64,000 bases of DNA, from assembly GCA_963788055.1 (NCBI GenBank), contig CAWBFA010000005.1:233783-297782 (forward strand). Reading direction: 5' to 3'. This document shows, piece by piece, positions 23,901 to 45,961 of the stretch. This stretch comes from an uncultured Actinomycetes bacterium (GTDB lineage Bacteria > Actinomycetota > Thermoleophilia > Gaiellales > Gaiellaceae). The translations under genes were made by a program, and so were the position numbers. Position 1 is the stretch's first letter, and every line of letters starts with the position of its first letter. A model generated the notes under the pieces. It was not told where the DNA came from, did not search any database, and saw only the letters and a program-made list of their open reading frames with translations.

Positions 23901-23912
23901 CGTTTCGCCGTC

Positions 23913-26785: not shown

Positions 26786-26792
26786 GCGGGCG

Positions 26793-26842: not shown

Positions 26843-26900
26843 AACAGAGTGGCGCGCTTCGAGCCTACCCGCCGAGGTGTGACGCGTTTGTGCGCGGATC

Positions 26901-27875: not shown

Positions 27876-27879
27876 CTCA

Positions 27880-30982: not shown

Positions 30983-31938
30983 GACCGCGCCCTCACGAAC
31001 ACGGGAATCGCGTCACGGTGACCGCCGTACGACACGTTCAGCGTGTACCGGCCGGCTCGCTCGGGAGCGAGCAGCGCGAGCGTCCGCCCGCTCGACGTGC
31101 CGGTGCGTGCGCCGAGCCGCCAGCGGTAGCGCTTGGCGTCGGTCGAGACGCCGACGCCGAAGCGAACGCCTGCGGGAACGACGATCCGTCGCGGCGCGAG
31201 CTCGATGAACCGAAGCCGGACGAGCGCCTGCGACTCTTCCGAGCGGTTGCCGGCGAGGTCGTGCGCGACGACGACGATCGAGATCGGCCCCTCTTGGGCG
31301 TCGCGCCCATACCACTCGATCTTCCCGACACCCCGCTGCCGGGGAGTGCTGCGGACGACCTCACGTCCGCCCGCGAGCAGCACGACGCGCGCAGGCTCAG
31401 ACAGGCGGAACCGCACGCGCACGTAGTCGCCGCGCCCGTCACCGTCGGGTGAGAACAAGAGAGGCGCGATCGAGTCCACAAGAAACTCCGGCGGCGTCGT
31501 GTCGAGTCGCAGCTCGTTCGGGATGTCGATCGTCCGCCGCGCGTCGGCCAGGTGCACGCGCGCGCGATACACGCCCTCGGGCGCGCCGCCGCCGTCCCAC
31601 ACGAACTCGACCGGGCCTGCCGGGAAGCGCTCGTCGTCCACGATCGTGCGTACTGCCTGGTCGTCGGCGTCGATCACCGTCACCGTCAGGCGGTCCGCGT
31701 CCCGCAGCCCGAACCGGATCCGCGCCCTGTCAGTCGGGCAGTCGCAGTCCGGGGAGAACGCCTTCGTCACTTTCGGGGCGACAATCGGCGAAGGAACGAG
31801 CTTCAGCCGCTCGGTGACCGCGAACGCAGCCGCAGTTCCGCCGAGCAGGCCGAGAACGAGGATCGTCGACAGGAGGCGCGGCAACCCGCGCGCGAGGCTA
31901 TCCGAACACCTTGGAGTGCCTGGGACGAACACGCACAA
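30979..31938 (-). CDS. membrane-anchored/secreted protein with FlgD-Ig-like domains
   Basis: 319-aa ORF. N-terminal hydrophobic anchor [37 protein letters not shown] is a FlgD-Ig-type motif. Start uncertain (TTG 31884 would avoid overlap with cysA). Confidence 0.55.
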
Positions 31939-32833
31939 GCGCGCCCTCGACGAGCTCGAGCCGCGTCGCCTCGTCGCGTGTCACCTGTGCCCAGAGCTCC
32001 TCCCCGTTCGCGAGACGGAGCTCGACGCGCACCTCGAAGCCGAGATGGACGATCCGCTCTACGAACGCCTCATCGCCTTCGCCGAACTCGACGTCGTGGG
32101 GACGGACGAACGACCCGCCGAGCTGGTTGACCTCGCCGACGAACGTCATCACGAACTCGTTCGCGGGGTTGTCGTACAGCTCGCGCGCTCCCCCAACCTG
32201 CTCGACACGCCCGTGACTCATCACGACGATCTGGTCGGCGAGGTCCATCGCCTCCTCCTGATCGTGCGTGACGAAGATCGTCGTCACGTGCACCTCGTCG
32301 TGGAGACGGCGGAGCCACGCCCGAAGCTCCTTCCGCACGCGCGCGTCGAGAGCGCCGAACGGCTCGTCCAGCAAGAGGACGTCGGGCTCCACGGCGAGCG
32401 CCCGCGCGAGCGCCATCCGCTGACGCTGACCGCCCGAGAGCTGAGCGGGGTAGCGATCGGCGAAGCCGCCCAGCTGGACGAGCTCGAGCAGGTGCGCGAC
32501 GCGCTCCTTGATCTCCTGCTTGGAACGGCGGCGGATCTCGAGGCCGAAGGCGACGTTCTTCCAGACCGTCATGTGCTTGAAGGCCGCGTAGTGCTGGAAG
32601 ACGAAGCCAACGCCGCGCTTCTGGGGAGGACGCGAAGTCACGTCGTGCCCGTCGATCAGCACGCGGCCGGCGTCCGGCTGCTCGAGCCCGGCGATGATGC
32701 GCAGGAGCGTCGACTTGCCGCTGCCGCTCGGACCGAGGAGCGCCGTGAGCGATCCGGCAGGGACCTCGACCGAGACGTCGTCGAGCGCGACGAACATGCC
32801 GAACTGCTTCGAGACGGACCGTGCTTCGATCAT
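31898..32833 (-). CDS. cysA: sulfate/thiosulfate ABC transporter ATP-binding protein
   Basis: 311-aa ORF. Walker [10 protein letters not shown], signature [15 protein letters not shown], Walker [13 protein letters not shown]-terminal TOBE-like tail. Follows cysT-cysW. Confidence 0.9.
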
Positions 32834-33609
32834 GCGCCCTCCTTCGGCTTGAACACGCTCATCGCGACGAGGGTCGCGATCGCGAGGATTGCGAGCACGA
32901 CGGAGGCGGCGTATGCCCCGACGTAGTCGAACGACTGGAAGCGCTCCTCGACGTGCAGCGTCATCGTCTCGGTCTTGCCGACGATGCGGCCGGAGACGAC
33001 GCTGACGGCGCCGAACTCACCGAGCGCACGCGCCGTCGTCAAGACGATGCCGTAGGCGACCGCCCAGCGAATAGCGGGGAGCGTGACCCGTCGGAACGTC
33101 TGCCACGACGACGCGCCGAGCGTCGACGCGGCCTGCTCCTGCTCGACGCCGATCTCGCGCAGCACTGGAACGACCTCGCGCACGACGAACGGGAGCGACA
33201 CGAAGATCGTCGCAAGCACCATGCCCGGCAGCGCGAAGACGACGTCGAACGGCACGTCGTGGAGCCACCCGCCGGTCCCGAAGAGGAGCAGAAACGCAAG
33301 ACCGACGACGATCGGCGAGAGCGCGAGCGGCAGATCGACGACCGCATTGAGGAGCCCCTTGCCCGGAGCGCGATGCCGGACGATCACGATCGCGCACGCG
33401 ATGCCGAAGATGGTGTTCGCGGGGACGACAATCGCGGTGATCAGGATCGTGATCCAAAACGCATGGATCGCCTCGGGTGTCGTGACCGACGCCCACGCCG
33501 CACCGACACCGTTCTCGAACGCCCGCCCGAAGACCATCGCGACCGGCAGGAGGAGCAGCAGCGCGAGGTAGCCGAGCGCCGTGAAGCGGAGGACGTACTT
33601 ACCCAACAC
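32830..33609 (-). CDS. cysW: sulfate ABC transporter permease
   Basis: 259-aa ORF, 6 TM, with the EAA-type loop [23 protein letters not shown]. Second permease of the sbp-cysTWA order. Confidence 0.85.
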
Positions 33610-34369
33610 GGTCGTGCCTCGTCACGCGGCGGCGCAGGCCGCCGATCAGGAGGAGGGCAGCAAACGAGAGGACGAGCAGGACGACGGACACGGCGGCTGC
33701 GCCCGACGGGTCGCCGCTCTCGATCCGCCCGAAGATGTACACGGAGGCCACCTCGGTCTCGAAGGGCAGGTTCCCCGAGATCAGCACGACCGAGCCGAAC
33801 TCGCCGATCGCCCGCGCGAACGCGAGCGCGACGCCGGAGAGCACAGCCGGGAAGAGATTCGGGAAGACGACGCGCCTGAAGACCTGGAGCGCGTTCGCGC
33901 CGAGCGACGCCGCCGCTTCCTCCATCTCGCGATCGAGCTCGAGCAGCACGGGCTGCACCGTCCTGACCACGAAGGGAAGCGTCACGAAGAGCAGCGCGAG
34001 GAGGATCGCCGCACGGGAGAACGCGACGTCGATGCCGAACGGCCCCTCAGGGCCGTAGAGAGCGAGCAGCGTCAGCCCGGCGACGATCGTCGGCAGCGCG
34101 AACGGCAGGTCGATCACCGCGTTGACGACCGACTTGCCCGGGAACTCGTCGCGGACGAGCACCCACGCGATCAGCGTCCCGACCACGGCGTTCACGAGCG
34201 CGACGAGGACCGAGACCACCAGGGTCAGCTTCAGCGCCGACACCGCCTGCGGCTCGGTGACGGCGTCCCAGAAGCTCTGCTCGCCCTTGGTCGACTGCCA
34301 GACGACGGCAGCGAGCGGGAGCAGGACGATCAAGGTCAGGTACGCCGTGACGAGCCCCTGCGTGATCAT
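33599..34369 (-). CDS. cysT: sulfate ABC transporter permease
   Basis: Protein-like part of ORF 33599..34516 from the ATG at 34369. EAA loop ASLGANALQVFRRVVFPNLFPAVL. Confidence 0.85.
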   Translation of the reverse strand: MITQGLVTAYLTLIVLLPLAAVVWQSTKGEQSFWDAVTEPQAVSALKLTLVVSVLVALVNAVVGTLIAWVLVRDEFPGKSVVNAVIDLPFALPTIVAGLTLLALYGPEGPFGIDVAFSRAAILLALLFVTLPFVVRTVQPVLLELDREMEEAAASLGANALQVFRRVVFPNLFPAVLSGVALAFARAIGEFGSVVLISGNLPFETEVASVYIFGRIESGDPSGAAAVSVVLLVLSFAALLLIGGLRRRVTRHDRVG

Positions 34370-34422: not shown

Positions 34423-35415
34423 TCAGTTCGTCCCGGTCTCGCGCTGGATCTTGGTCACGATCCCGGTGTTCGGGTTGAAGAAGCGGTTGTCGACCTTCGC
34501 CCATCCCCCGAGCCACTTGATCGAGAACAGCTGCGGCCGGACGGGGAACGAGAAGCCCTTCGCGGCCGCCGGCACGACAGGCCTATAGCCGTTCTGCGCG
34601 AAGATCTTCTGCGCTGCGGTCGTGCGGAGGTAGCGCACGAAGGAGTTCGCCGTGGCCTTGTTCTGCGAGTTCGTCGTGACGGCGATCGGATTCTCGATCC
34701 GGATCGTCGCCTTCGGGATGACGTAGGGGACCTCCTGGTTGTTCTGGTTCGCGAAGATCGCTTCGTTCTCGTAGGCGAGCAGGACGTCGCCGCGGCCCGC
34801 GAGGAAGGTCTGCAGCGCCTCGCGCGCGCTCTTGTCCTGCGAGACGATGTGCTTATAGAGGTTCCGGAGGTACGCCACGGCCTGCGCGTGCGTCTTCTTC
34901 TTGCGCAGCTGTGCGCCGTAGGCGGCCATGATGTTCCACTTCGCGCCGCCCGAGGTCTGCACGTTCGGCGTCACCACCTGCACGCCCGGCTTCACGAGGT
35001 CGCCCCAGTCGCGGATCTTCTTCGGGTTGCCCTTCCGCACGGCGAAGACGACGACGGAGCGCGTGACGATGCCGCCCCACTTGTCGTTCTTCCAGCTCCT
35101 CGGCACGATGCCCTTGTTCACGAGCGTGGTCACGTCGGGCTCGAGCGAGAGCGCGACGACATCGGCCTTCAGCCCGGAGATGACCGCGCGCGCCTGCTCG
35201 CCTGACGACCCGTAGCTCTGCTGGAACGAGGTGTCGTTGCCTGCGGCCGTCTTCTGGAACGCGGGAATCAGGTCGGCGTAGGCCGCCCGCGGGGTCGAGT
35301 AGGCGACGAGCGAGATCGAGCCGCCTTCCAAGCGCGCAGAGGTGCCGGCCGCGAGCGCCAGCGCGAAGGCAGCGGCGGCGAGAACGGCGAGCGAGGCGAG
35401 AATGCGTTTGGGCAA
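34423..35415 (-). CDS. sbp: sulfate/thiosulfate ABC transporter substrate-binding protein
   Basis: 330-aa ORF. Signal-like N-terminus PKRILASLAVLAAAAFALALAAG. ..SFQQSYGSSGEQARAVISGLKADVVALSLEPDV.. is typical of Sbp/CysP. TTG start preceded by AGGAG with a 5-nt spacer. Confidence 0.9.
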   Translation of the reverse strand: MPKRILASLAVLAAAAFALALAAGTSARLEGGSISLVAYSTPRAAYADLIPAFQKTAAGNDTSFQQSYGSSGEQARAVISGLKADVVALSLEPDVTTLVNKGIVPRSWKNDKWGGIVTRSVVVFAVRKGNPKKIRDWGDLVKPGVQVVTPNVQTSGGAKWNIMAAYGAQLRKKKTHAQAVAYLRNLYKHIVSQDKSAREALQTFLAGRGDVLLAYENEAIFANQNNQEVPYVIPKATIRIENPIAVTTNSQNKATANSFVRYLRTTAAQKIFAQNGYRPVVPAAAKGFSFPVRPQLFSIKWLGGWAKVDNRFFNPNTGIVTKIQRETGTN

Positions 35416-35483: not shown

Positions 35484-35985
35484 TCAAGCCGGAACCGAAC
35501 CTCGGTGGTCCGGCCGCGGCGGGAGCGGGCAGGAGACGAACGGCCGCCCGGTCAGCCGAAGGCCCAGCTTGTAGGCCTCGCAGCCGGTACAGAAGCCCGT
35601 GCTGGCAGCGAGGAGGGCCAGCCCGGCGACCAGCAGCCCGAGCCCCGCGCCGACGGTCGCCCACCCGGCCGCGTACGCAGCAGACGCTGCGCCCAGCACC
35701 GCGATCCCCACCATGTTCGCAAACCGCGGCGGGCGCGAGTCCTCGAGCGGGCCCTCGCCGAAGTGCGGCTGCACCAGCTCGAAGTACGCAAGACAGGGGA
35801 GGCAGAACCGCCGGCCGAACGTGAGGCCGACGGCGAGCTGCAGCGCCAGCAGCCGCGAGCAGCCACCACCAACCCGTCGCCACCGCGAGTACGGACAGGA
35901 CTCCGACGACCGCCTGGTTGAACCGCGGCGCGCGGGAGTCGATCACGTCGGTGTCGCGGTAGGGGTCGGCGGCCCAGGCGATCAC
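35484..35985 (-). CDS. DUF4395 membrane protein, interrupted by an apparent +1 frame change near 35848-35860
   Basis: The GTG at 35985 overlaps the sat TGA. The N-terminal part ([28 protein letters not shown]) is in one frame. The rest ([20 protein letters not shown]...[14 protein letters not shown]...[10 protein letters not shown]) is in the +1 frame (ORF 35484..35774). Confidence 0.7.
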
Positions 35986-37119
35986 GTGCGATAGGCCTCG
36001 ATCAGGACCGCGGCGACCTCGGGCCGCGTGAACTCCGTCGGCGGGACTTCGCCGCCCGCGAGCAACTCGCGCACCTTCGTCCCCGAGAGGAACACGTGCT
36101 GCTCCTTGCCGTGCGGGCACGTCTTCGCGCTCGCCATCGAGCCGCACGCCTTGCACCAGAACGAGTGCTCGAAGAACATCGGCTCGATGTCGAGCTCGTG
36201 CGGCTCGAACTCGTCGAAGATCAGCTGGGCGTCGTACGTTCCGTAATAGTCGCCGACGCCGGCGTGGTCGCGGCCGACGATGAAGTGCGAGCAGCCGTAG
36301 TTCTTGCGGCAGATCGCGTGCCAGATCGCCTCGCGCGGGCCTGCGTAGCGCATCGCCGCCGGGAAGGCCGACAGGAGCACGCGGTCGGCCGGGTAGTAGT
36401 CGTCGATCAGCGTGCGGTAGCAGGCCACGCGCACGTCGGCCGGGACGTCGTCGCCCTTCGTGTCTCCGACGAGCGGATGGACGAGCAGGCCGTCGACGGT
36501 CTCGAGCGCGACCTTCGTCAGGTACTCGTGCGCACGATGGATCGGGTTGCGCGTCTGGAAGCCGACGACCCGCCTCCAGCCGCGCTCGGCGAAGGCCGCG
36601 CGCGTGTCGCGCGGATCGAGCGCGAGCTCGGCGAACTCGGGCTCGGGCCGCTCGAACACCGTGACGCGGCCGGCGAGGTACCTCGGCTTCTGCGCGTAGA
36701 GCCGCGCGACGCCGGGGTGGGCCTCGTCGGTCGTGCGGAAGCAGTTCTCCGCCTCGCGGTCCTTGTCGTACGTTGTAGACCTCGGCGACCTCGAGCACGG
36801 CGAGCTTCCGCCCGCTCTCGTCGGCGAGCGCCACGCGGCCGCCCTGCGGCGCCTCGTCGACGGCGAGGCAGACCGGCAGCGCCCACGGAAGCCCGCTCGC
36901 GAGCCGCATCTCGTCGACGACGCGCTCGTAGTCCTCGCGACCCATGAACCCATCGAGCGGCGAGAGCGCCCCGGAGGCGATCATGCCAAGGTCGGAGACC
37001 TCGCGCGAGGTGAGCATCACGACTGCGAGCGAGTCGAGGTCGCCCGGCCGCTCGCCCGTCCGGTCGACGAGCTCGCCGCCGTGCGGCCGGATCAGCCGCT
37101 CCGTCGCGACCGCCGTCAC
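35982..37119 (-). CDS. sat: sulfate adenylyltransferase (ATP sulfurylase), interrupted by an apparent +1 frame change near 36768-36775
   Basis: The GTG at 37119 overlaps the cysC TGA. The N-terminal part (..[23 protein letters not shown]) is in the frame of ORF 35461..37368. The remainder ([21 protein letters not shown]...[13 protein letters not shown]...GRDHAGVG) is ORF 35982..36953. Confidence 0.85.
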
Positions 37120-37715
37120 GCCGTCACCCCGGACTCGACGAGACCGAGCTCCTCGAGCTTCGCGACGATCAGACGTGCCGACTCCTCGGCGTCGTGCTGC
37201 TCCGTGTCGACGACGAGCTCGGGGCTCACCGGGTCCTCGTACGGGTCGTCGACGCCCGTGAAGCCCTTGATCTCCCCCCTGAAAGCCTTCTCGTACAGCC
37301 CCTTCACGTCGCGCTTCGCGCACTCGTCCACCGACGCCTTGACGTGCACCTCGACGAACGTGCCCCACTCCTCGACCATGGTCCGGGCTTTGCGCCGCGT
37401 CTCCTCGTACGGCGAGATCGCGGCCGCGATCACCGCGCCGCCCTGTCGCGTCAGGCGCGAGGCGACCCAGCCGATCCGCTCGATGTTCGTGTCGCGGTCC
37501 TCCTTCGAGAACCCGAGCCCCTTCGACAGATGCGTGCGCACCGTGTCGCCGTCGAGGTACTCGACGACGTGGCCGCGGCGCTCGAGCTCCGGACCGACGA
37601 GATGCGCGATCGTGGACTTGCCCGCGCCCGAGAGACCCGTGAACCAGAGCGTGAAGCCGCCCTCGCGGCGACGGTCCGACTCGGGGTGCTCGTGCGCGTA
37701 GATGTGCTCAGTCAT
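37116..37715 (-). CDS. cysC: adenylylsulfate (APS) kinase
   Basis: 199-aa ORF. P-loop [17 protein letters not shown], followed by the DGD motif ([11 protein letters not shown]). Confidence 0.9.
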
Positions 37716-38394
37716 TGCTCTCCTTGATCAATGGTGCGTTCACGTGGATGCCGCATTCGAGCTTGTTCGAGCCGGCCCAGCGGCCTGCGCGCTCGTCCTC
37801 GCCGGCGTTCACCGGCCGCGTGCAGTGGATGCACCCGATCGAGGGGTAGCCCTGGTCGTGCAGCGGGTTGTAGGGAATCTCGTTGACGGCGATGTACGCG
37901 TCGACGCGCTTCGAGCTCCAGTCGACGAGCGGCTGGATCTTCCAGACGCCGTAGCGCTCCGACCACTCGACCTTCTGCGCGTTCGCGCGCGTCGCGGACT
38001 GCTCGCGCCGGATACCGGTGATCCACGCGTCGTAGCCGGCGAGCGCGCGCTCGAGCGGCTCGACCTTGCGGATCCCGCAGCAGCGGTCCGGGTCGGTCTC
38101 CCAGAGGAGATCGGGCGGGTCGATCGGCCGGAACGACTTCAGGTTGAGGTCGTACTTCGCCACCAGCTGATCGCGGGTCGCATAGGTCTCGGGGAAGAGC
38201 ACGAGCGTGTCGAGCTCGACGACGTCGGTGGCCAGGCCGAGCTCGCTGATCATGTGCACGAGCGCCGACGACTGCCGCTGCCACGAGCAGGTCAGGCACA
38301 GCTTGTCGCCGAACTCCTCGGCCGCCCAGCGGAGCAGCTCTTCCGCGGACATCGCCTCGAAGTCGAGCTCAGGAAGCGCCGGCGCGCTCGCCAT
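37708..38394 (-). CDS. cysH: APS/PAPS reductase, Fe-S (APS reductase) type
   Basis: 228-aa ORF. Cys pairs [12 protein letters not shown] and GCIHCTRPV (4Fe-4S ligand pattern) plus the C-terminal KLECGIH catalytic motif. Alternative start ATG at 38352. Confidence 0.85.
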
Positions 38395-39112
38395 GGATCT
38401 CCTTCAGCGTGTCCCCGCGCAGACCGAGACGCAGGGTCTCGAGCGGGATCACCTCGTCCGGCGGGATGTTCCCGAGGTTCACGTCCGAGCCGAGCGTCTT
38501 CACGAACCACGCTTGCGCAGCCTTCGTCGGCGCTTCGAAGATCACGTTTGCAGGCTCGACCGCATCTGCGATCTCCACGATCAGCTCCGTGCGCATCCCG
38601 CCGGACGAGTCGAAGATGCCGGCGGTGCCGCCCTCGCGCGCCTCGGTGATCACCTTCCAGGCGCCCGCGTCGAGCTCCTCGCGGAGCCAGCTCGTCCACT
38701 CGTCCGCGGAGTACTCCACCGACGAGTCCTTCGAGCCGACCTCAGAGAGCACGGTGAAGTCGCGCGCGAAGTCGGCGATCAGCTCGAGCTTCTCCTCGCG
38801 CGGGATCTCGACCGTGCCGTCGGAGAGCTCGACGTGGGTGAGTCCGAGGTCGCGCAACCACGCCTTGTACTGGTCCACCTTCCCCTTGACGTAGACGACC
38901 TCGAAGAACGTCCCGCCGATCACCACCGGCTTCTCGCGCAACACCTCCAGCTTCCGTTTGAGGTTCGGCGTGACGTACGCGGTGCCCCAGCCGAGCTTGA
39001 CGACATCGATGTAGACGCCCGAGGTCTCGAGCACGTCCTCCCACGCACGCGGGCCGAGGCCCTTGTCGATCACGTGGGTGATGCCGCCGGCGCGGGGCTC
39101 AAAATCGAGCAA
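38369..39112 (-). CDS. comA: (2R)-phospho-3-sulfolactate synthase (ComA family)
   Basis: 247-aa ORF, TTG start. GVYIDVVKLGWGTAYV ... GGTFFE ... VELSDGTVEIP ... LSEVGSKD ... VITEAREGGTAGIF matches my recollection of the ComA/PF02679 TIM-barrel pattern along the full length. Confidence 0.75.
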   Translation of the reverse strand: MLDFEPRAGGITHVIDKGLGPRAWEDVLETSGVYIDVVKLGWGTAYVTPNLKRKLEVLREKPVVIGGTFFEVVYVKGKVDQYKAWLRDLGLTHVELSDGTVEIPREEKLELIADFARDFTVLSEVGSKDSSVEYSADEWTSWLREELDAGAWKVITEAREGGTAGIFDSSGGMRTELIVEIADAVEPANVIFEAPTKAAQAWFVKTLGSDVNLGNIPPDEVIPLETLRLGLRGDTLKEIHGERAGAS

Positions 39113-39686
39113 AGAGCTCCTTCAGCTTCTCCTGCGCGCGCTCCTGTACGTCGTGGTAGAGCGAGTTGCCGTGCGCGTCGATCCCGACCGTCAGCGGCCC
39201 GAAGTCCTTGACGCGGAACTTCCAGAGGCACTCGGGCATCAGCTCCTCCCAGGCCACCTCCTCGATCTCCTCGATCTGCGTCGTCTCGAGCGCGGCCGCG
39301 CCGCCGACGATCGCGAAGTAGACCATCCCGAGCCGGTGCATCGGCTCGATCGCCTCGTCGGGGAAGCCGCCCTTGCCACAGACCGCGCGCACGCCGTATT
39401 GCGCGCCGAGCGGCTCGGTGAAGCGCACCATGCGGGCGCTCGTCGTCGTGCCGATGCAGACCTTCTCGTACTTGCCTTCGGCGAGCTTGCGGACGCCCGG
39501 CGCGGTGTGGAGCAGGAACGCGCCGCGGAGATCCATCGGCGGCTCGACGCCCTGGTCGAAGATCCGGACTTGCGTGCGGTCGCGGATGCCGATGATGTGG
39601 CCCTGGACGACCACCTCGTCGCCGGCGCGGAGCTTGAGGATCTCCGCTTCGTCGGTGATCGGGAACGTGACTTCGTGGACGGCCAT
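39099..39686 (-). CDS. Fe-S hydro-lyase beta subunit (class I fumarate hydratase / tartrate dehydratase family)
   Basis: Protein-like part of ORF 39099..39818 from the ATG at 39686, which overlaps the alpha-subunit TGA. LLHTAPG...RAVCGKGGF...MVYFAIVGGAAAL. Confidence 0.85.
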   Translation of the reverse strand: MAVHEVTFPITDEAEILKLRAGDEVVVQGHIIGIRDRTQVRIFDQGVEPPMDLRGAFLLHTAPGVRKLAEGKYEKVCIGTTTSARMVRFTEPLGAQYGVRAVCGKGGFPDEAIEPMHRLGMVYFAIVGGAAALETTQIEEIEEVAWEELMPECLWKFRVKDFGPLTVGIDAHGNSLYHDVQERAQEKLKELFARF

Positions 39687-40585
39687 CAGAATTCCCTGTC
39701 GAAGTCGACGGTGCCGTCGGGGGCGATGTGCGCGGAGGCCCGGCGCGCCGCCCAGCACTGGTAGTTGACCGCGACGGGATTGAGGGTCATGTGCGTGTCC
39801 GCGTGCTCGATGTGGCACTGCAGCACCGTCACGTCACCGCCGAGGCCCATCGGGCCGATCCCGGTCTCGTTCAGCAGCGAGAAGAGCTCGTCCTCGAGCT
39901 GCGCGACGAGAGGGTCGCCGTTCCGCGTGCCGATCGGGCGCATGATCGCCTCCTTCGCGAGGTACATCGCGTAGTCGGCGCTGCCGCCGATCCCCACGCC
40001 GACGATTCCCGGCGGGCACGGCTTGCCGCCGGCGCCGACGATCGACTCGAGCACGAACTGCTTGATCCCCTTCACGCCGTCGGCGGGGACGCACATCTTG
40101 AGGAAGCTCATGTTCTCGGAGCCCGAGCCCTTGGGCACACACTTGACGTCGAGCCCGTCCCAGTCGTCGATGAACTCCCAGTGCACGATCGGCAGGCGGT
40201 AGCCGATGTTCGGCCCGGTGTTCTCGCGCGTGATCGTGTGCACAGCGTTCGAGCGCAGCGGGTGCTCGAGCGTCGCGCGCGCGGTCCCGTCGCGCAGCCC
40301 CTCGTAGATCCGCGCCGGGTGCAGCGGAAAATGCTCGCCCACGCGGCAGTGGTAGACGGCGATGCCGGTGTCCTGGCAGACGAGGTTCTTCTCGCCGTCG
40401 GCGATGTTGATGTTGCGGTGGATCGTCTCGAGCACGCGCTTCCCGGGAACAGACGTCTCGAGCGCGCGCGCGTCAGAGAGCGCGTCGCGGAGGTCCTGCG
40501 GGATGTCCTTCAACGCCCACACGTAGAGATGCGCCGCGGCGTCCTCCACCGTGTGTTGCAGATCGGTCATCACATCGATGCTCAT
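39686..40585 (-). CDS. Fe-S hydro-lyase alpha subunit (class I fumarate hydratase / tartrate dehydratase family)
   Basis: Protein-like C-terminal 299 codons of ORF 39686..41773 from the ATG at 40585, which overlaps the flavoprotein [49 protein letters not shown]. Confidence 0.85.
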
Positions 40586-41773
40586 GGCTTCGCTTTCTCC
40601 GCGGCGGCCTTGCCAGCGCGGCGGCCGAACACGGTGCACTCGAGGAGGGAGTTGCCCATCATGCGATTCCGCCCATGGGTTCCGCCGGCGATCTCGCCGG
40701 CCGCGAAGAGCCCGTCGAGCGTCGTCTCGCCGTGCTCGTCGATCACGAGCCCGCCGTTCTGGTAGTGGAGCACGGGGTAGGTGAAGATCGGCTCGCGCAG
40801 CGGGTCGATGCCCGCGCCGCGGTAGCGCCGAAGCATGTACGGCAGCGAGATCTCGGCGTCGGCCTCGGAGATGCGCGTCGTGTCGAGGTAGACCGCAGGC
40901 CGCCCGTCGGGCGTGTGGACGCCTTTGCCCTTCGCGACCTCGTCGACGATCGCCTGCGAGACCGCGTCGCGCGGCCCGAGCGAGTCGGTGAACTCCTCGC
41001 GGTCGGCGTTCAGCAGCACGGCACCGTACGCGCGCGTCGTCTCGGGGATCGAGTACCCCTGCATCGTCCCCGGCCACGCGCCGCCGTTCGGGTGGTACTG
41101 CAGCGCGTCGAGGTCGCGGGCCTCCGCGCCGAGGTCGATCGCCATCTGCGTCACCTCGCCGGTCGCGCCGGGATGATTCGTCGAGAGCTCGCCTCGCTCC
41201 TCCGCCTCGCGATAGCAGCGGCCGCCGGCGGCGAGGACGACCGTTGCCGCGTCGAGCACCTGGTCGCCGACCCTGGCCCGCCAGCACTGCTCCGTTTGCA
41301 CGAGCTCGGAGAGCGGCGACTTCGGGAACGTGTCGGTCGACGAGGACTCGACCGCCTCGCGCAGCGCCTTCGTGATCGCGTGACCGGTCCTGTCGCCGAC
41401 CTGCAGCAGGCGCTTGCGGGTGGCGCCGCCGCAGCGGGCCAGCCGGTAGCCGCCGTTTCTCGTTCGTGCGCGCGTGAACTCGACGCCCGAGCTCCTCGAG
41501 CCAGTGGATCGCGGAGGGTGCCTCAGTCGTCAGGATCTCCACGAGCCGGCGGTCGGCGGTCTCGTGGCTCGACGTCCAGACGTCTTCGGCGTGCTGCTCG
41601 GGCGAGTCGTCGTCACCGAAGGCCGCCTGGATTCCGCCCTGGGCCTTCGCGGAGTTGCAGCTCTGGAGCGAGCCTTTCGTCGCCACGGCGACGCGCGCGC
41701 CTGCGCGTTCAGCGGCAACGGCGGCGGCAAGGCCGGAGGCCCCGCTGCCGATCACGAGCACGTCGTAGGGCAC
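40582..41773 (-). CDS. FAD flavoprotein of the fumarate reductase / succinate dehydrogenase / L-aspartate oxidase family (short, about 397 aa), interrupted by an apparent +1 frame change near 41484-41489
   Basis: GTG start at 41773. The N-terminus YDVLVIGSGASGLAAAVAAERAGARV...AKAQGGIQAA...HWLEELG is in one frame. The continuation VEFTR..GGYRLARCGGATRKRLLQVGDRTGHAIT...LFAAGEIAGGTHGRNRMMGNSLLECTVFGRRAG is in the +1 frame (ORF 40582..41301). Confidence 0.8.
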
Positions 41774-41826: not shown

Positions 41827-42780
41827 TCACCAGATCGACCGGTAGAGCGCCTCGACCTCTCCGACCGTGGCTGGTCGCGGGTTCGCGCGGTTCCCGCCGC
41901 GGGCGGCGGCCGCCTCTGCGAGCCTCGGGAGGTCGGCTTCCGGGACGCCGACGTCGCGGAGACGGGTCGGCCCGGACAGCGCCGCGAGCTCCTCGACCCT
42001 TGCGGCGGGATCCTCGGGTGCACCGATGGCCTCGCCGAAGCGACGCACAGCCTCGGGAACGAGCTCGGCGTTGAACCGGAGCGCGGCCGGGAGGACGATT
42101 GCGTTCATCGCGCCGTGCGGCAGCCCGTATGCCCCGCCGACCGCCTGTGCCATCGCGTGGCCGAGTCCGAGTCCCGCCAGGGCGAGCGCCTCACCGGCGT
42201 GGGCGGCACCTTCGAGTAGGTGCGTCCGCAGCTCGAGGTCGTCCGGCCGTTCGAGGACGAGCGGCAGCAGCTCCGCGATCAGCGTCGCCCCCTCGAGCGC
42301 ACGCTTGTCACCCTCGTCGTTCCGACCCTGTACGTACAGCGCCTCGGCCGTGTGTGCGAGCGCGTTCATCGCCGTCCCGCCCGACTCCGCGCGAGGGAGC
42401 CCGAGCGTCAGCTCAGGGTCATAGACGATCCCCGCCATCCGTGCACCGCCGCCGCCGCCGACCATCCTCCTGTCGTGGTCGCGGACGCCGAAGGTCGGCG
42501 TCCACTCGGAGCCCGAGTACGTCGTCGGCACGGAGACGACCGGGAGTCCCCGCGCCGCGGATGGCGCCTTCGCCGTGTCGATCGCACTGCCGCCGCCAAC
42601 CGCGAGCAGTCCGTCGACGTCGTCGGGCGCCTCGATCCGATCCGACGGGATCTCGTGCCACGCGGCCGCTGCGGGAAGCTCGAGCGACGACCACCGGTCG
42701 CTCGCGACGAGGAGCGGGCGCTCGATGCCGAGCTCCGCGAGGACCTCCGGGAGCGCGTCGAGCCCCCAGCGGACGATCAC
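41827..42780 (-). CDS. iron-containing alcohol dehydrogenase family protein (maleylacetate-reductase-like)
   Basis: 317-aa ORF. GGGSAIDTAK, TTYSGSE, and a His-rich metal-site region GLGLGHAMAQAVGGAYGLPHGAMNA. Its GTG overlaps the LysR TGA. Confidence 0.75.
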   Translation of the reverse strand: MIVRWGLDALPEVLAELGIERPLLVASDRWSSLELPAAAAWHEIPSDRIEAPDDVDGLLAVGGGSAIDTAKAPSAARGLPVVSVPTTYSGSEWTPTFGVRDHDRRMVGGGGGARMAGIVYDPELTLGLPRAESGGTAMNALAHTAEALYVQGRNDEGDKRALEGATLIAELLPLVLERPDDLELRTHLLEGAAHAGEALALAGLGLGHAMAQAVGGAYGLPHGAMNAIVLPAALRFNAELVPEAVRRFGEAIGAPEDPAARVEELAALSGPTRLRDVGVPEADLPRLAEAAAARGGNRANPRPATVGEVEALYRSIW

Positions 42781-43676
42781 GTCAGGCGTTCCTTGCCGAA
42801 TGCGACGAACGCGTCGGCGACCCGCGTCGGCGACTTGCGTGCGGCACGCACGAGCGAGACGTCGCGCACGAGGTTCAGGCCGCGAACGCGCGCCTCGCCG
42901 AGCGTGCCTGCGGCCAGCTCCGCCTCGACGGCCGAGCGCGAGATGAACGTGACGCCGTAGCCGGCGAGGACGGCGCTCCGCACGGACTCCTGCAGGCCGA
43001 GCTCGAGCGGCACGTCGAAGTCGCGCAGCCGTTCGCCGCTCCGCCGCAGTTCGTCTTCGAGCAGTTGCCGCACACCGCCGCCTTCCTGCATCACGATCAG
43101 CGGCTCCTTGCGCAGCTCGTCGAGCGAAACGGTGCGGCCGGCGAACTTGTGGTCGGGCGGAGTGGCGAGGATGACCTCGTCGCGGAAGAAGGGCTCGAAC
43201 GCGACGCCGCGCTGACGGCGCGCCGCGCCGACGATCCCGAGCTCGAGCTCACGGGCGGCGACGAGCTCGACGACCGCGTGGGTATCGGCGACCGTGAGCG
43301 AGACCTTGACGCCCGGGTTCTCGGCCTGGAACTCGCAGAGCAGGAGCGGCAACACGATCGCGGCGGGCCCGGTCGAGGCGCCCAGGTCGAGCGTCCCCGT
43401 GAGCTCGCCCTCCCCGACCGTCGCGACGTCCTCGAGCAGCTGGTCCTCGAGCGCCAGCATCCGCTGCGCACTCCGGTAGAGCCGCCGACCGGCTTCGGTC
43501 GGCTCGACCCGCCGGCCCGAGCGGTCGAGCAGCTGCCTGCCGAGACGCTTCTCCAGCGCCCTAATCTGGAGGCTGACGGCGGGCTGCGTGACGCCGAGGC
43601 GCTCCGCCGCCTGTGAAAAGCTCTTCCTCTCGACGACCGCGCAAAACGCAGCAAGCTGTCGCGTATCCATAAGCAT
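42777..43676 (-). CDS. LysR-family transcriptional regulator
   Basis: 299-aa ORF. MDTRQLAAFCAVVERKSFSQAAERLGVTQPAVSLQIRALEKRLG. The likely true start is ATG 43670 (MDTRQL). Confidence 0.9.
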   Translation of the reverse strand: MLMDTRQLAAFCAVVERKSFSQAAERLGVTQPAVSLQIRALEKRLGRQLLDRSGRRVEPTEAGRRLYRSAQRMLALEDQLLEDVATVGEGELTGTLDLGASTGPAAIVLPLLLCEFQAENPGVKVSLTVADTHAVVELVAARELELGIVGAARRQRGVAFEPFFRDEVILATPPDHKFAGRTVSLDELRKEPLIVMQEGGGVRQLLEDELRRSGERLRDFDVPLELGLQESVRSAVLAGYGVTFISRSAVEAELAAGTLGEARVRGLNLVRDVSLVRAARKSPTRVADAFVAFGKERLT

Positions 43677-43684
43677 CTATTATG
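43668..43684. promoter_or_regulatory. CATAA-N7-TTATG dyad spanning the divergent LysR and sugar-transferase start codons
   Basis: CATAAGCATCTATTATG. The arms contain the ATG of each divergent gene. Locally AT-rich. Confidence 0.35.
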
Positions 43685-44350
43685 ACAAACCCCATGGAAT
43701 CACTCGCCGAGCGCTACGCCGCGCTGGCGCAGGGGTCGCCGCGGCGCGGCCGGGACATCGCGCTCCGTGGGCTGGATCTCGTCTTTTCGACCTTCCTCGA
43801 GGTCGTCTCTCTGCCGGTCCAGCTCGTGATCGCGCTCGCGATCCTCGCGACCAGCGGCCGCCCGGTCCTGTACCGAGGCGAGCGAGTGGGACGCGAAGGG
43901 CGCGTCTTCACGATGTTCAAGTTCCGCACCCTCAGCCCGGACGCGGAGACGCGCCTCGGCCCGTACCTCGAAGGCGAGCTCGTCCGCCGTACGAGAGCGG
44001 AGACGACCGGGCTCGGCCGCTGGCTCCGTGCAACGCAACTCGACGAGATCCCCCAGTTCTGGAACGTGCTCCGCGGCGACATGAGCTTCGTCGGACCGAG
44101 GCCGATCCGCCCGCGCTTCTTCGAGGAGCTCGCCGCCGAGCTGCCCGCGTACTGGCAGCGGCTCGTCGTCCGGCCCGGCCTGACCGGCCTCGCGCAGATG
44201 CGGCAGAGCCGCGAGACGTCGTGGTCGGAGAAGCTCGCCCACGATCTGGAGTGGATCGCTGACCGGTCGGTGCGGCTCTACCTGCAGACGCTCGCGTCGA
44301 CCGCCTGGCGCGTCCTGCGGCAGTCCCTAGGCGCCAAAGTCCAGGCGTAG
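43682..44350 (+). CDS. small monotopic phosphoglycosyl transferase (bacterial sugar transferase, PglC/WbaP-C-terminal type)
   Basis: 222-aa ORF. One N-terminal helix, then FTMFKFRTL, LDEIPQFWNVLRGDMSFVGPRP, RPGLTGLAQ. Confidence 0.85.
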   Translation: MTNPMESLAERYAALAQGSPRRGRDIALRGLDLVFSTFLEVVSLPVQLVIALAILATSGRPVLYRGERVGREGRVFTMFKFRTLSPDAETRLGPYLEGELVRRTRAETTGLGRWLRATQLDEIPQFWNVLRGDMSFVGPRPIRPRFFEELAAELPAYWQRLVVRPGLTGLAQMRQSRETSWSEKLAHDLEWIADRSVRLYLQTLASTAWRVLRQSLGAKVQA

Positions 44351-45926
44351 CTCCTCGAGCGCGAGGTCGCGCAGGATCTGGTGCATCACGTCGTCCGAGA
44401 TCACGCCGGAGCGACGCAGCTCGAGCACGGCTTGCTCCTCGGCGCGCAGGAGCTCGCGACGGACCTGCTGGAACGCCTGCGAGCGATCCTCGATCTCGCT
44501 CCGGTCGTCGTCCAGCCGCTCGCGGAACCGGTCTGCCCGAAAGTTGTACTGGCCGCGGATCCGCTCCGCGGTGTCCTCGCGGACCTCACCCGCCTCGACG
44601 AGCTCCGCGAGCCGCGCGAGCGCGGCCTCGGCCGCGCGGATCCGCGCCTTCGCCTCCTCGACCTGGGCCGCCCCGTCCTCTTCCAGGCCCACGAGCTTGA
44701 TCAGGAGCGGCAGCGTGAGCCCCTGCAGGACGAGCGTCGCCAGGATCACGCACGACGCGAGGAAGATGATGATCTCCCGTCCGGGGAATGGAGCGCCGGC
44801 GTCGGTCGTCAGCGGGATCGCGAGCGCGGCGGCGAGCGACACGGCCCCGCGCATCCCCGCCCACCCGAGGACGAGCGGGATTCGCCAGGTCGGGTACGGA
44901 TCGCGCTCCCGAATCCTTCTGATCAGGAAGCGCGGGACGTACGCGAGCGGAAACACGAACGCCAGCCGGATCAGGATCACCGCCGCGCAGACCCCGGCCG
45001 CGGAGACCGCGAGCTCGCTCGTGGACCAGCCGTCGAGCTGGTCGAGCACCTCGGGAATCTGCAGCCCGACGAGCACGAAGAGCGCGGCGTTGAGGATGAA
45101 CGTCAGGATCGTCCAGAAGGCCTCGCCGTTCAGTCGGGTCTCCGCGTTCGTGAGCTCAGGCGTGTACCAGCCCATGTACAGGCCGACCGTGACGGCGGCG
45201 AGCACCGCCGAGACCCCGAGCGCCTCCGCTGGGAGGTACGCGAGATAGGCGGTGAGGAGCGCGACGGTGATCTCGGTCGGCGGGTCGTTGAGGCGTCTGC
45301 GCACCTGGCGCACGAGGTAGCCGACGACGAGCCCGATCGCGATCCCACCGACCGCGTTGACGACGAGCTGCGCGCCCGCCTCCCAGAGCGAGAACGTGCC
45401 GGCCACCGTCGCGACGACCGCGGTTCGGTAGAAGACGAGCGCACTCGCGTCGTTCAGAAGGCTCTCGCCCTCGATCACCGTGATCAGGCGGCGGGGGACG
45501 CCGAGGCGCCGACCGATCGAGGTCGCCGCGATCGGGTCGGTGGGCGAGACAACCGCGCCGAGCACGAAGGCCGCCTGCCAGGTCAGGCCGTCGACCAGCC
45601 AGTGTGCGACGACGGCGACGCCGGCCATCGTCACCGCAACCAGCCCGATCGCGAGCATCGAGACGGGCCTGAGGTTCGGCGCGCAGGTCGCGCACCGAGG
45701 TGAAGAACGCCGACGAATAGAGGAGCGGCGGCAGGAAGCCGATCAGGATCACTTCGGGAGGCAGGTCGAACTTCGGCAGGCCGGGGACGAACGCGAGACC
45801 GAGCCCGCCGATGACGAGCAGGATCGGGTACGGGATCCGCAAGACGGGCGCCAAAACGACGAGCACACCGAGACCGACGAGCAGCCCGACGAGCTGCCAC
45901 AGCTCATGGGAGTGAAGGTCGATCAC
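44327..45926 (-). CDS. Na+/H+ antiporter (CPA1/NhaP type), interrupted by an apparent +1 frame change near 45675-45682
   Basis: The N-terminal three helices (..LLVIGGLGLAFVPGLP..LLYSSAFFTSVRDLRA) are in the frame of ORF 45156..45986, with a GTG start at 45926. The continuation NLRPVSMLAIGLVAVT... is ORF 44327..45658. Confidence 0.8.
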
Positions 45927-45961
45927 GGGACGATACGGCCTGCCTCCGTAGAGTTCCGCCG

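What the first reader, a model, noticed from the sequence alone, without database searches (positions are those of the whole stretch)
35982..41773. Candidate undescribed organosulfonate pathway: ComA wired to fumarase-like and fumarate-reductase-like enzymes and to a private sulfate-activation line
Seen directly: the minus strand carries a gap-free string of genes. In order they are flavoprotein (SdhA/FrdA/NadB family), class-I Fe-S hydro-lyase alpha, beta, ComA-family phosphosulfolactate synthase, Fe-S-type APS reductase, APS kinase, ATP sulfurylase and DUF4395. Every junction is a 1-26 nt overlap, mostly ATGA or GTGA. After a 68-nt gap come sbp-cysT-cysW-cysA.

Established: ComA adds sulfite to PEP to give phosphosulfolactate. 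Its known partners are the ComB phosphatase, the ComC dehydrogenase and ComDE (methanogen coenzyme M route). In the Xanthobacter-type bacterial route the partner is an aspartase/fumarase-superfamily enzyme that eliminates phosphate to give sulfoacrylate. As far as I recall, Bacillus links sulfate-activation genes to ComA/ComB homologues for sulfolactate. None of ComB, ComC, ComDE or an aspartase-family enzyme is present here.

Inference: sulfolactate is the sulfonate isostere of malate. The two enzyme types fused to ComA in this operon are the homologues of the malate-to-fumarate and fumarate-to-succinate enzymes. A plausible route is sulfite + PEP -> (phospho)sulfolactate -> sulfoacrylate (Fe-S hydro-lyase) -> 3-sulfopropionate (flavoprotein), or a related product.

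The upstream LysR plus Fe-ADH pair (41827..43676) could supply regulation and a further redox step. Caveat: sat and the flavoprotein gene each carry a frame disruption as sequenced.
Basis: partly seen in the sequence, partly recalled or inferred. Interest (0 to 1): 0.8.

Follow-up and report, generated by a model that had tools for sequence, protein, structure and literature searches.

The report
ComA sulfonate operon with fumarase-like enzymes
A common group of soil actinobacteria (Gaiellales) keeps the sulfite-fixing enzyme ComA in one operon with a fumarase-like iron-sulfur enzyme, a shortened fumarate-reductase-like flavoprotein and the genes that make sulfite from sulfate, which points to an undescribed route to a three-carbon sulfonate, although no sequence feature yet shows that the two fumarate-type enzymes have changed substrate.

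Summary
The gene string is real. All eight genes hit the stated families, and every junction is a 1-26 nt overlap. The window copy has three single-base frameshifts, not two.

The closest relatives are Gaiellales MAGs. In 63 of 66 species-level loci with enough upstream DNA, flavoprotein, hydro-lyase alpha and beta lie directly upstream of ComA. The flanks vary: two CysH types, Sat or CysDN, or only a TauE permease.

No ComB, Xcb-type lyase or CysI-type sulfite reductase lies within 10 kb in any locus. Six sampled ComA loci outside Gaiellales lack the trio.

The hydro-lyase keeps all three cluster cysteines, all ten fumarase active-site residues and the KGXGS motif.

The flavoprotein is 393 aa. 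It lacks the C-terminal domain, the covalent-FAD histidine and the NadB glutamate. It keeps the four fumarate-site His/Arg residues.

Best reading: sulfate to sulfite to phosphosulfolactate to sulfoacrylate to 3-sulfopropionate. This rests on gene context alone.

The operon sits inside a conserved surface-glycan locus. The searched literature describes no such ComA link. I score it a new variant of ComA-initiated sulfonate synthesis, of moderate-to-high interest.

The parts
42777..43676 (-). LysR-family regulator
   Evidence: HTH_1 1e-24 and LysR_substrate 7e-43. The L001 orthologue scores just under the cut-off of NCBIfam 'selenium metabolism-associated LysR' (245.6 against 250). Present upstream in most related loci.
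41827..42780 (-). Short (317 aa) iron-type alcohol dehydrogenase family protein, 53 nt upstream of the flavoprotein gene
   Evidence: ADH_Fe_C 4e-36 and Fe-ADH 4e-11. No NCBIfam equivalog cut-off is reached. Found near the core in 55 loci, but more than 300 nt away in 35 of them.
40582..41773 (-). Truncated FrdA/SdhA/NadB-family flavoprotein (about 397 aa), proposed sulfoacrylate reductase; +1 frameshift at 41486
   Evidence: FAD_binding_2 in two frames. The intact 393-aa orthologue in L001 was aligned to E. coli FrdA and NadB. His232, Glu245, Arg248, Arg287, His355 and Arg390 are kept. FrdA His44 is Asn, NadB Glu121 is Cys, and there is no C-terminal domain. All NCBIfam cut-offs are failed.
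39686..40585 (-). Class I (Fe-S) fumarate-hydratase-type hydro-lyase, alpha subunit, 299 aa
   Evidence: Fumerase 1.4e-87. Hits M. jannaschii FH alpha 7xky_A at 9e-73. The L001 orthologue scores 305 against the NF004885 cut-off of 276. CQDTG, PLR, KGSGS, KPCPP and QCWA are all kept and invariant in 66 orthologues.
39099..39686 (-). Hydro-lyase beta subunit, 195 aa
   Evidence: Fumerase_C 1.2e-27. Hits 7xky_B at 1e-31. Equivalents of Arg32, Thr80, Thr81, Arg84 and Lys104 are kept.
38369..39112 (-). ComA, phosphosulfolactate synthase, 247 aa, TTG start
   Evidence: PF02679 6e-82. Hits B. subtilis YitD 1u83 at 1.7e-54 and M. jannaschii ComA 1qwg at 1.3e-45. Carries every column that is invariant in a 32-sequence ComA alignment.
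37708..38394 (-). CysH, Fe-S-type APS reductase
   Evidence: PAPS_reduct 1.9e-43. CC pair, CxxC and ECGIH motifs present.
37116..37715 (-). CysC, APS kinase
   Evidence: APS_kinase 2e-61.
35982..37119 (-). Sat, ATP sulfurylase; +1 frameshift at about 36772
   Evidence: PUA_2 in one frame and ATP-sulfurylase (5.5e-99) in another. The extra base is seen against L002 and L004.
35484..35985 (-). DUF4395 membrane protein; +1 frameshift at 35853
   Evidence: The intact orthologue hits PF14340 at 3e-30.
34423..35415 (-). Sulfate-binding protein (Sbp)
   Evidence: 94% identical to the L001 gene that carries SBP_bac_11 and related domains.
33599..34369 (-). CysT permease
   Evidence: 96% identical to the L001 BPD_transp_1 gene. 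The start was set at MITQGL by comparison with L001.
32830..33609 (-). CysW permease
   Evidence: 96% identical to the L001 BPD_transp_1 gene.
31898..32833 (-). CysA ATPase
   Evidence: 94% identical to the L001 ABC_tran/TOBE gene.

Best explanation
This is a biosynthetic operon, typical of the order Gaiellales, that turns sulfate into a three-carbon sulfonate.

Proposed steps:
1. Sulfate is imported by Sbp-CysTWA, or by a TauE-type permease in relatives. It is activated by Sat and reduced to sulfite by CysH. CysC additionally makes PAPS, probably for a sulfotransferase of the surrounding glycan locus.
2. ComA adds the sulfite to phosphoenolpyruvate to give (2R)-phosphosulfolactate.
3. The phosphate is lost. 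Either an unlinked phosphatase gives (R)-sulfolactate, the isostere of L-malate, or the hydro-lyase eliminates the phosphate directly.
4. The Fe-S hydro-lyase produces sulfoacrylate.
5. The stand-alone flavoprotein, which binds FAD non-covalently, reduces sulfoacrylate to 3-sulfopropionate.
6. The product is exported (TauE) or used by the neighbouring surface-glycan genes.

What is shown: the gene identities, the translational coupling and the order-wide conservation of the four-gene core. What is inferred from context and family chemistry: every reaction after ComA.
For: 1. The family assignments are strong.
2. The flavoprotein/alpha/beta/ComA core is directly adjacent in 63 of 66 species-level loci. 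ComA identity falls to 62-63% across them. Core junctions have median gaps of 10-35 nt. Both flanks were rearranged many times: at least eight downstream layouts, and insertions upstream in 35 of 55 loci.
3. The sulfite source is co-transcribed, and it was replaced by a non-orthologous equivalent while staying next to ComA. Fe-S CysH goes with Sat; cluster-free CysH goes with CysDN.
4. ComA lies beside ComB (Brevibacillus, Legionella) or Xcb-type lyases (Methylocystis) in the non-Gaiellales loci where a partner was evident; two Bacteroidota loci showed neither. In Gaiellales that adjacent position is taken by the hydro-lyase. No ComB or Xcb homologue lies within 10 kb in 80 loci.
5. The KGXGS motif fits the S-malate, and hence R-sulfolactate, geometry.
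6. The flavoprotein keeps the enoate-binding and proton-donor residues but lacks the covalent-FAD histidine and the NadB glutamate. This fits a soluble enoate reductase.
7. FrdA-like plus FumAB cassettes recur elsewhere as a two-step unit.
8. The chain 3-sulfopropionate/sulfoacrylate/sulfolactate has been proposed as a catabolic route. A TauE has been called a probable 3-sulfopropionate exporter (PMC11489063).
Against: - The hydro-lyase shows no sequence sign of a new specificity. All ten fumarase active-site residues are invariant, and it passes the equivalog cut-off for fumarate hydratase.
- No phosphatase is assigned, and an Fe-S hydro-lyase acting on a phosphate ester has no precedent.
- No electron donor for the flavoprotein is identified.
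- The proton to be removed is alpha to a sulfonate. That is harder than in malate, although XcbC does it with phosphate as leaving group.
- The trio was found only in Gaiellales. Six ComA loci sampled outside the order lack it.
- Two loci have ComA without the pair, and one has the flavoprotein without the hydro-lyase.
- The window copy carries three frameshifts.
- No metabolite data exist.
Confidence: 0.42

Rival explanations
1. The hydro-lyase is an ordinary fumarase, and the flavoprotein an ordinary soluble fumarate reductase or aspartate-oxidase-like enzyme. They merely share a transcription unit with ComA and the cys genes. ComA then makes phosphosulfolactate or sulfolactate as the end product, as in Bacillus.
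For: All fumarase active-site residues, the cluster ligands and the KGXGS motif are kept. The alpha subunit passes NF004885 'fumarate hydratase' and matches the characterised M. jannaschii enzyme strongly (E 9e-73). The flavoprotein keeps the four fumarate-site His/Arg residues. Two Gaiellales loci have ComA plus cys genes without the pair.
Against: Overlapping stop and start codons tie the pair to ComA. The core stays intact in 63 of 66 species while everything around it is reshuffled. A housekeeping TCA enzyme inside a sulfur operon within a glycan locus would be unusual. The flavoprotein fails every NCBIfam cut-off and lacks the C-terminal domain, the NadB Glu121 and any Fe-S partner.
Confidence: 0.22
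2. The pathway is the same, but the Fe-S hydro-lyase works as a phospho-lyase. It eliminates phosphate directly from phosphosulfolactate to give sulfoacrylate. It would be a class I fumarase-fold counterpart of XcbC, which is a class II fumarase-superfamily enzyme.
For: No ComB or other phosphatase lies in the operon or within 10 kb in 80 loci. The hydro-lyase sits next to ComA, where ComB or Xcb-type lyase genes sit in the Brevibacillus, Legionella and Methylocystis loci. XcbC shows that this elimination is biologically used.
Against: The active site is unchanged from fumarase. It is built to bind a free 2-hydroxyl on the unique iron, with no obvious room for a phosphate ester. No Fe-S hydro-lyase is known to use a phosphate ester.
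Confidence: 0.15
3. The core is catabolic. 3-Sulfopropionate (or a related sulfonate) is oxidised to sulfoacrylate, hydrated to sulfolactate and desulfonated, and TauE exports the sulfite.
For: Such a route is cited for Roseovarius. Eight loci carry only flavoprotein-FumAB-ComA-TauE, without cys genes. FrdA-like plus FumAB cassettes with transporters or ETF in Rhodococcus and Paracoccus look catabolic.
Against: ComA acting in reverse would need phosphosulfolactate, and no kinase or SuyAB-type lyase is present. In most loci ComA overlaps CysH, which produces sulfite. The flavoprotein lacks the covalent FAD and has no electron-acceptor partner.
Confidence: 0.06
4. In this particular genome the operon is a decaying pseudogene cluster.
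For: There are three independent +1 frameshifts within 6.3 kb, in the flavoprotein, sat and DUF4395 genes.
Against: Apart from the single extra bases, the reading frames are otherwise uninterrupted in each piece, and the products are 81-98% identical to intact relatives. Two of the three insertions extend a G run. Related long-read MAGs show the same kind of split hits. The other genes of the string are intact.
Confidence: 0.15

Closest known systems
Bacillus sulfolactate genes (sulfate-activation genes with ComA/ComB homologues YitD/YitC); the operon layout is recalled from memory, and a ComA-ComB pair was seen here in Brevibacillus
   Same: Sulfate activation and reduction are linked to a ComA homologue in a non-methanogen. 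The window ComA matches YitD (1u83) at 1.7e-54.
   Different: No ComB phosphatase. A fumarase-type hydro-lyase and a flavoprotein are attached instead, which implies processing beyond sulfolactate.
Bacterial coenzyme M pathway XcbA-E of Xanthobacter (PMC9457059)
   Same: ComA (XcbB) is followed by a 'fumarase-like' enzyme that gives sulfoacrylate.
   Different: XcbC belongs to the aspartase/fumarase (class II) superfamily. Here the enzyme is a class I Fe-S hydro-lyase, an unrelated fold. No XcbC, D, E or A homologues are present. A flavoprotein follows instead of cysteine addition.
Methanogen coenzyme M pathway ComA-ComB-ComC-ComDE
   Same: The first enzyme, ComA, hits 1qwg at 1.3e-45.
   Different: No ComB homologue was found within 10 kb in any of 80 loci. 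No ComB, ComC or ComDE Pfam families appear among the genes called around two relatives.
Two-subunit class I fumarate hydratase of Methanocaldococcus jannaschii (PDB 7xky)
   Same: Strong match of both subunits (alpha E 9e-73, beta E 1e-31), with identical cluster ligands, active-site residues and KGXGS motif.
   Different: Here it is encoded in an operon between a flavoprotein and ComA. The substrate is untested.
Soluble, non-covalent-FAD members of the FrdA/NadB family (yeast Osm1/Frd1, urocanate reductase, L-aspartate oxidase)
   Same: The FAD and capping domains and the His/Arg substrate clamp with Arg proton donor are kept, and there is no covalent-FAD histidine.
   Different: It is shorter than any of them at 393 aa, with no C-terminal or accessory domain. 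NadB Glu121 is Cys. FrdA Thr234 is Asn and Thr244 is Pro, both invariant in 60 orthologues.
FrdA-like flavoprotein plus FumA/FumB cassettes on Rhodococcus jostii RHA1 pRHL1 and a Paracoccus seriniphilus plasmid
   Same: The same two enzyme families lie adjacent in the same order. The RHA1 alpha subunit is 50% identical.
   Different: Those flavoproteins are full length and come with SdhBCD-like subunits or ETF and with transporters. They have no ComA or cys genes and probably work oxidatively.

Membership tests
ComA / phosphosulfolactate synthase (PF02679) | Pfam model matched above the gathering score over its full length | tested here: met
   275 bits against a cut-off of 25.2, profile positions 6-243 of 243.
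ComA / phosphosulfolactate synthase (PF02679) | Sequence similarity to ComA proteins with solved structures, and possession of the family-invariant residues | tested here: met
   Hits 1u83 at 1.7e-54 and 1qwg at 1.3e-45. Carries every invariant column of a 32-sequence alignment.
ComA / phosphosulfolactate synthase (PF02679) | NCBIfam equivalog TIGR03849 cut-off | tested here: not met
   The L001 orthologue scores 244.5 against a cut-off of 280. The model is tuned to archaeal ComA.
ComA / phosphosulfolactate synthase (PF02679) | Catalyses sulfite plus PEP to phosphosulfolactate | not testable with these tools
   Needs an enzyme assay.
Class I (Fe-S) two-subunit fumarate hydratase | Fumerase and Fumerase_C domains on adjacent genes | tested here: met
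   1.4e-87 and 1.2e-27.
Class I (Fe-S) two-subunit fumarate hydratase | Three cysteine ligands of the [4Fe-4S] cluster | tested here: met
   The Cys of CQDTG, KPCPP and QCWA align to the conserved Cys-containing motifs of MjFH (my assignment of these as the cluster ligands is from knowledge of the family) and are invariant in 66 orthologues.
Class I (Fe-S) two-subunit fumarate hydratase | Ten substrate-contacting residues of MjFH/LmFH and the KGXGS proximal loop | tested here: met
   Alpha Gln61, Asp62, Arg102 and KGSGS; beta Arg32, Thr80, Thr81, Arg84 and Lys104. All are present and conserved in the order.
Class I (Fe-S) two-subunit fumarate hydratase | NCBIfam equivalog cut-offs | tested here: inconclusive
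   Alpha scores 305 against 276 for NF004885 (met). Beta scores 153 against 269 for NF004708 (not met) but passes the subfamily model TIGR00723, 153.5 against 145.
Class I (Fe-S) two-subunit fumarate hydratase | Physiological substrate is fumarate/malate | not testable with these tools
   The gene context argues for a sulfonated analogue; the sequence does not discriminate.
SdhA/FrdA/NadB flavoprotein family | FAD_binding_2 domain with the catalytic His232, Arg287, His355 and Arg390 (FrdA numbering) | tested here: met
SdhA/FrdA/NadB flavoprotein family | C-terminal helical domain (Succ_DH_flav_C) | tested here: not met
   The protein ends at about residue 393, just after the Arg390 motif.
SdhA/FrdA/NadB flavoprotein family | Histidine for covalent FAD (complex II type), and an Fe-S partner subunit in the operon | tested here: not met
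   FrdA His44 aligns to Asn. No SdhB-like gene is present in the loci.
L-aspartate oxidase (NadB) | Glu121, which contacts the substrate amino group (role recalled from memory), and the TIGR00551 cut-off | tested here: not met
   Glu121 aligns to Cys. The score is 259 against a cut-off of 453.
Methanogen CoM pathway (ComA-E) | ComB phosphatase, ComC dehydrogenase and ComDE decarboxylase linked to ComA | tested here: not met
   No ComB homologue in 80 loci or the window. No such Pfam families appear around L001 or L002. The rest of the genomes was not searched.
Bacterial CoM pathway (XcbA-E) | Aspartase/fumarase-superfamily XcbC and XcbD, PLP-dependent XcbE and reductase XcbA next to ComA | tested here: not met
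   tblastn with the Methylocystis xcb-type proteins gave no hit at E up to 1e-3.

The most novel reading that the evidence does not exclude
Gaiellales make a previously unknown sulfonated building block, 3-sulfopropionate or a sulfoacrylate or sulfolactate derivative, by a 'sulfo-analogue of the reductive TCA branch'. They install it, together with sulfate esters, on a cell-surface glycan encoded by the surrounding conserved locus (Bac_transf, AsnB-like amidoligase, PIG-L deacetylase, Wzy, sulfotransferase). In this reading a class I Fe-S fumarase-fold enzyme has been recruited to organosulfonate chemistry, possibly as a phosphate-eliminating lyase convergent with XcbC.
Probability: 0.15. Interest if true: 0.85.

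Novelty: new variant of a known kind. Interest (0 to 1): 0.62.

Why it matters
Only three fates of ComA's product are known: coenzyme M in methanogens, coenzyme M in alkene-oxidising bacteria, and spore sulfolactate in Bacillus.

ComA and hydro-lyase genes of this cluster type turned up on very many soil-metagenome contigs. The protein searches returned thousands of near-identical copies. Gaiellales, as I recall, are among the abundant actinobacteria in soils.

If the operon makes 3-sulfopropionate or a related compound, several things follow:
- It would be a fourth ComA route.
- It would be a new biological source of C3 sulfonates for the soil sulfur cycle.
- It would be the first organosulfonate role for a class I Fe-S hydro-lyase and for a minimal FrdA-type flavoprotein.

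The idea can be tested directly, because Gaiella occulta is in culture and the enzymes are small.

Tried and rejected
- Exact look-up of the window ComA in public assemblies found nothing.
The narrower alignment returned only Gaiellales/Thermoleophilia, so the distribution outside the order could not be sampled systematically.
- Two apparent Fumerase_C-ComA fusion proteins (P0249, P0318) looked like Rosetta-stone evidence. They turned out to be frameshifted Gaiellales sequences and were discarded.
- The 0.4-6 kb stretches between Fe-ADH and the flavoprotein gene were checked for a hidden conserved pathway gene such as ComB. They hold heterogeneous genes, mostly on the opposite strand.
- ComA loci in Bacteroidota, Methylocystis, Legionella and Brevibacillus were inspected for the trio. 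None has it.
- I considered the flavoprotein as NadB and rejected it: no Glu121, no C-terminal domain, and a score below the cut-off.
- Seven full-text literature searches were run, three of them aimed at this gene link. None found a paper that links ComA to class I fumarase, or that mentions a sulfolactate dehydratase or a sulfoacrylate reductase. A search on Gaiella plus ComA returned only noise.
- The promoter and terminator scan gave nothing above chance.
- No structure prediction was run. The intact flavoprotein comes from a related locus, which the tool does not accept, and the hydro-lyase already has a close solved homologue.

Full report
**Observation**

- FAD_binding_2, in two frames
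- Fumerase, 1.4e-87
- Fumerase_C, 1.2e-27
- ComA, 6e-82
- PAPS_reduct, 1.9e-43
- APS_kinase, 2e-61
- PUA_2 plus ATP-sulfurylase, 5.5e-99
- DUF4395

Reading the three minus-strand frames fixes the junctions at 4, 1, 14, 26, 8, 4 and 4 nt of overlap. A 68-nt gap then precedes sbp-cysT-cysW-cysA. The CysH has the CC pair and the CxxC motif of Fe-S APS reductases.

One correction is needed. There are three frame disruptions, not two. Each is one extra base relative to intact relatives: flavoprotein at 41486, sat at 36772 and DUF4395 at 35853. The first and third extend a run of G. Many related MAGs show the same sort of split hits, so I regard assembly error as more likely than decay. I cannot prove it.

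**Source and conservation**

The nearest ComA and hydro-lyase proteins are 83-96% identical. They come from soil metagenomes and from MAGs named Gaiellaceae or Thermoleophilia.

Two long contigs show the same order:
- One replaces Sat with CysD-CysN and adds a TauE-family permease.
- The other has a short-chain dehydrogenase inserted between the flavoprotein and the alpha subunit.

A scan of one genome per species returned 80 loci, all Gaiellales/Thermoleophilia, with ComA 62-91% identical. I mapped reference proteins onto them.
- Of 66 loci with at least 3 kb upstream of ComA, 63 have flavoprotein, alpha and beta directly upstream.
- Two loci have none of the three, and one has only the flavoprotein.
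- Gaps inside the core have medians of 10-35 nt. The Fe-ADH to flavoprotein distance has a median of 936 nt and exceeds 300 nt in 35 of 55 loci. The genes I checked in those gaps are heterogeneous and mostly on the opposite strand.
- Downstream there are at least eight layouts. One has only a TauE permease after ComA (8 loci).
- Two different CysH types are each paired with a different ATP sulfurylase.

So the four-gene core is held together while its surroundings are reshuffled. That is the best evidence for functional coupling.

**The individual proteins**

*ComA.* It is a solid family member.

*Hydro-lyase.* It is strikingly conservative.
- The alpha subunit hits the characterised M. jannaschii fumarase alpha at E 9e-73, and beta hits the M. 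jannaschii beta subunit at 1e-31.
- I used the residue list from the MjFH mutagenesis study (bioRxiv 10.1101/2022.09.03.506457) and the KGXGS/AGGGC distinction between fumarases and L-tartrate dehydratases (bioRxiv 10.1101/2023.06.17.545066).
- All three cluster cysteines, all ten substrate-contacting residues and the KGXGS loop are present. They are invariant across 66-71 orthologues.
- The alpha subunit passes NCBIfam's equivalog cut-off for fumarate hydratase.
- This does not exclude sulfolactate, since Arg, Lys and Thr can bind a sulfonate. It does remove any sequence-level support for a changed specificity.

*Flavoprotein.* It is more unusual.
- It has 393 aa, comprising the FAD and capping domains only.
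- It fails every NCBIfam cut-off. Its best partial matches are nadB and TfrA.
- I aligned it to E. coli FrdA and NadB. It keeps His232, Glu245, Arg248, Arg287, His355 and Arg390.
- It has Asn at the covalent-FAD histidine, Cys at NadB Glu121, Asn at FrdA Thr234 and Pro at Thr244.
- These residues are invariant, or at least 90% conserved in the case of the Cys, in 60 orthologues.
- From established work on FrdA H44 mutants (my knowledge), non-covalent FAD supports fumarate reduction but not succinate oxidation. This favours an enoate-reductase role.

**ComA contexts elsewhere**

ComA fusions among 50%-identity cluster representatives join it to ComB, to adenylation plus carrier domains, or to an ATP-grasp ligase. 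Annotated or called loci show the following:
- An xcb-type set in Methylocystis.
- An aminotransferase, a 970-aa fusion protein annotated as phosphosulfolactate synthase and a ComB in Legionella lytica.
- ComA-ComB in Brevibacillus.
- No relevant partner in two Bacteroidota.

None has the hydro-lyase or the flavoprotein. In the 80 Gaiellales loci and the whole window, tblastn finds no ComB, no Xcb C/D/E/A homologue and no CysI-like sulfite reductase.

In the loci with a recognisable partner (Brevibacillus, Legionella, Methylocystis), ComA sits next to an enzyme that can act on phosphosulfolactate. Here the adjacent position is held by the Fe-S hydro-lyase. This either points to an unlinked phosphatase or raises the possibility that the hydro-lyase removes the phosphate itself, as the unrelated XcbC does (PMC9457059).

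**Support for the cassette logic**

FrdA-like flavoprotein plus FumA/FumB cassettes occur without ComA in two places:
- Rhodococcus jostii RHA1 pRHL1, where alpha is 50% identical and ETF and an MFS transporter lie nearby.
- A Paracoccus seriniphilus plasmid, with SdhBCD-like genes and a TTT transporter.

The two families thus recur as a two-step unit on succinate, fumarate or malate-like acids. A paper on sulfoglycolysis cites a thesis that proposes 3-sulfopropionate to sulfoacrylate to sulfolactate in Roseovarius. It also labels a TauE as a probable 3-sulfopropionate exporter (PMC11489063). The intermediates are therefore biologically credible. No paper in the library mentions a sulfolactate dehydratase or a sulfoacrylate reductase, or links ComA to class I fumarase.

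**Wider context**

The operon lies in a surface-glycan locus. In the window it is flanked as follows (the AsnB-like assignment is by eye from the translation and was not scanned):
- On one side by Bac_transf, an AsnB-like gene and DUF354.
- On the other by FlgD_ig, Wzy_C, a Wzx flippase, a GT1, an ATP-grasp enzyme and an epimerase.

Where enough flanking DNA was retrieved, the related loci usually show the same sandwich: DUF354-AsnB-Bac_transf on one side and FlgD_ig-Wzy_C-PIG-L on the other. Thirteen loci also carry a sulfotransferase. This offers a use for the APS kinase, which an APS reductase does not need. It also suggests, speculatively, that the sulfonate ends up on a glycan.

**Conclusion**

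The residue test fails, and the chemistry after ComA remains an inference.

My best explanation, with confidence about 0.4, is a biosynthetic route: sulfate to sulfite to phosphosulfolactate to (sulfolactate) to sulfoacrylate to 3-sulfopropionate.

The main rival, about 0.2, is that the pair are ordinary fumarate enzymes sharing an operon.

I file the system as a new variant of ComA-initiated sulfonate biosynthesis. It is interesting because it is order-wide, its genes are very common in soil metagenomes, I found no description of it in the searched literature, and it can be tested directly.

Noticed in passing
window 22554-31938 and 43682-48892: The sulfur operon is embedded in a surface-glycan biosynthesis island: epimerase, ATP-grasp, GT1, Wzx flippase, Wzy_C, FlgD_ig; and Bac_transf, an AsnB-like gene and DUF354. 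The same sandwich is seen in most of the 80 related loci with enough flanking DNA, often with a PIG-L deacetylase.
   Followed up: partly
L053:12184-13140 and 12 other related loci (for example L007, L027, L057, L063): A Sulfotransfer_3 gene lies just downstream of the ComA operon, between FlgD_ig and Wzy_C. It is a plausible consumer of the PAPS made by the operon's APS kinase. No copy was found in the window.
   Followed up: partly
window 37708-38394; L001:10722-11402: Two non-equivalent CysH types occupy the same position after ComA. The Fe-S type (CC plus CxxC) goes with Sat. A cluster-free type (about 44-46% identical) goes with CysD-CysN.
   Followed up: partly
   Followed up: yes
L094:4948-9462 (Rhodococcus jostii RHA1 pRHL1); L092:3836-8619 (Paracoccus seriniphilus plasmid): Full-length FrdA/SdhA-like flavoprotein genes lie directly upstream of FumA/FumB-like genes, with ETF plus MFS or SdhBCD-like plus TTT transporter. 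These look like uncharacterised catabolic cassettes for a succinate analogue.
   Followed up: partly
P0254, P0269, P0301, P0320, P0333; L089:5826-8738 (Legionella lytica plasmid): ComA is fused to adenylation (AMP-binding, with or without a carrier domain) or ATP-grasp ligase domains in other lineages. This suggests that ComA-derived sulfonated acids are activated and ligated into larger molecules.
   Followed up: no
L085:8001-9591 (Pedobacter glucosidilyticus), L087 (Fulvitalea axinellae), and many Bacteroidota hits: ComA is widespread in Cytophagales and Sphingobacteriales. In Pedobacter it lies next to a shikimate-dehydrogenase-like gene, with no ComB nearby. It could relate to sulfonolipid (cysteate) supply.
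   Followed up: no
L053:6450-6839, L048:6779-7174, L057:6563-6970, L063:6584-6973: In the Gaiella-type loci that lack cys genes, a small tandem-CBS-domain gene lies divergently just upstream of the flavoprotein gene. DUF4395 sits on the opposite strand after TauE.
   Followed up: no
L002:7683-8528; also L018, L037, L068: A short-chain dehydrogenase (281 aa) is inserted between the flavoprotein and the alpha subunit in four species. It may be an extra redox step or an electron donor.
   Followed up: no
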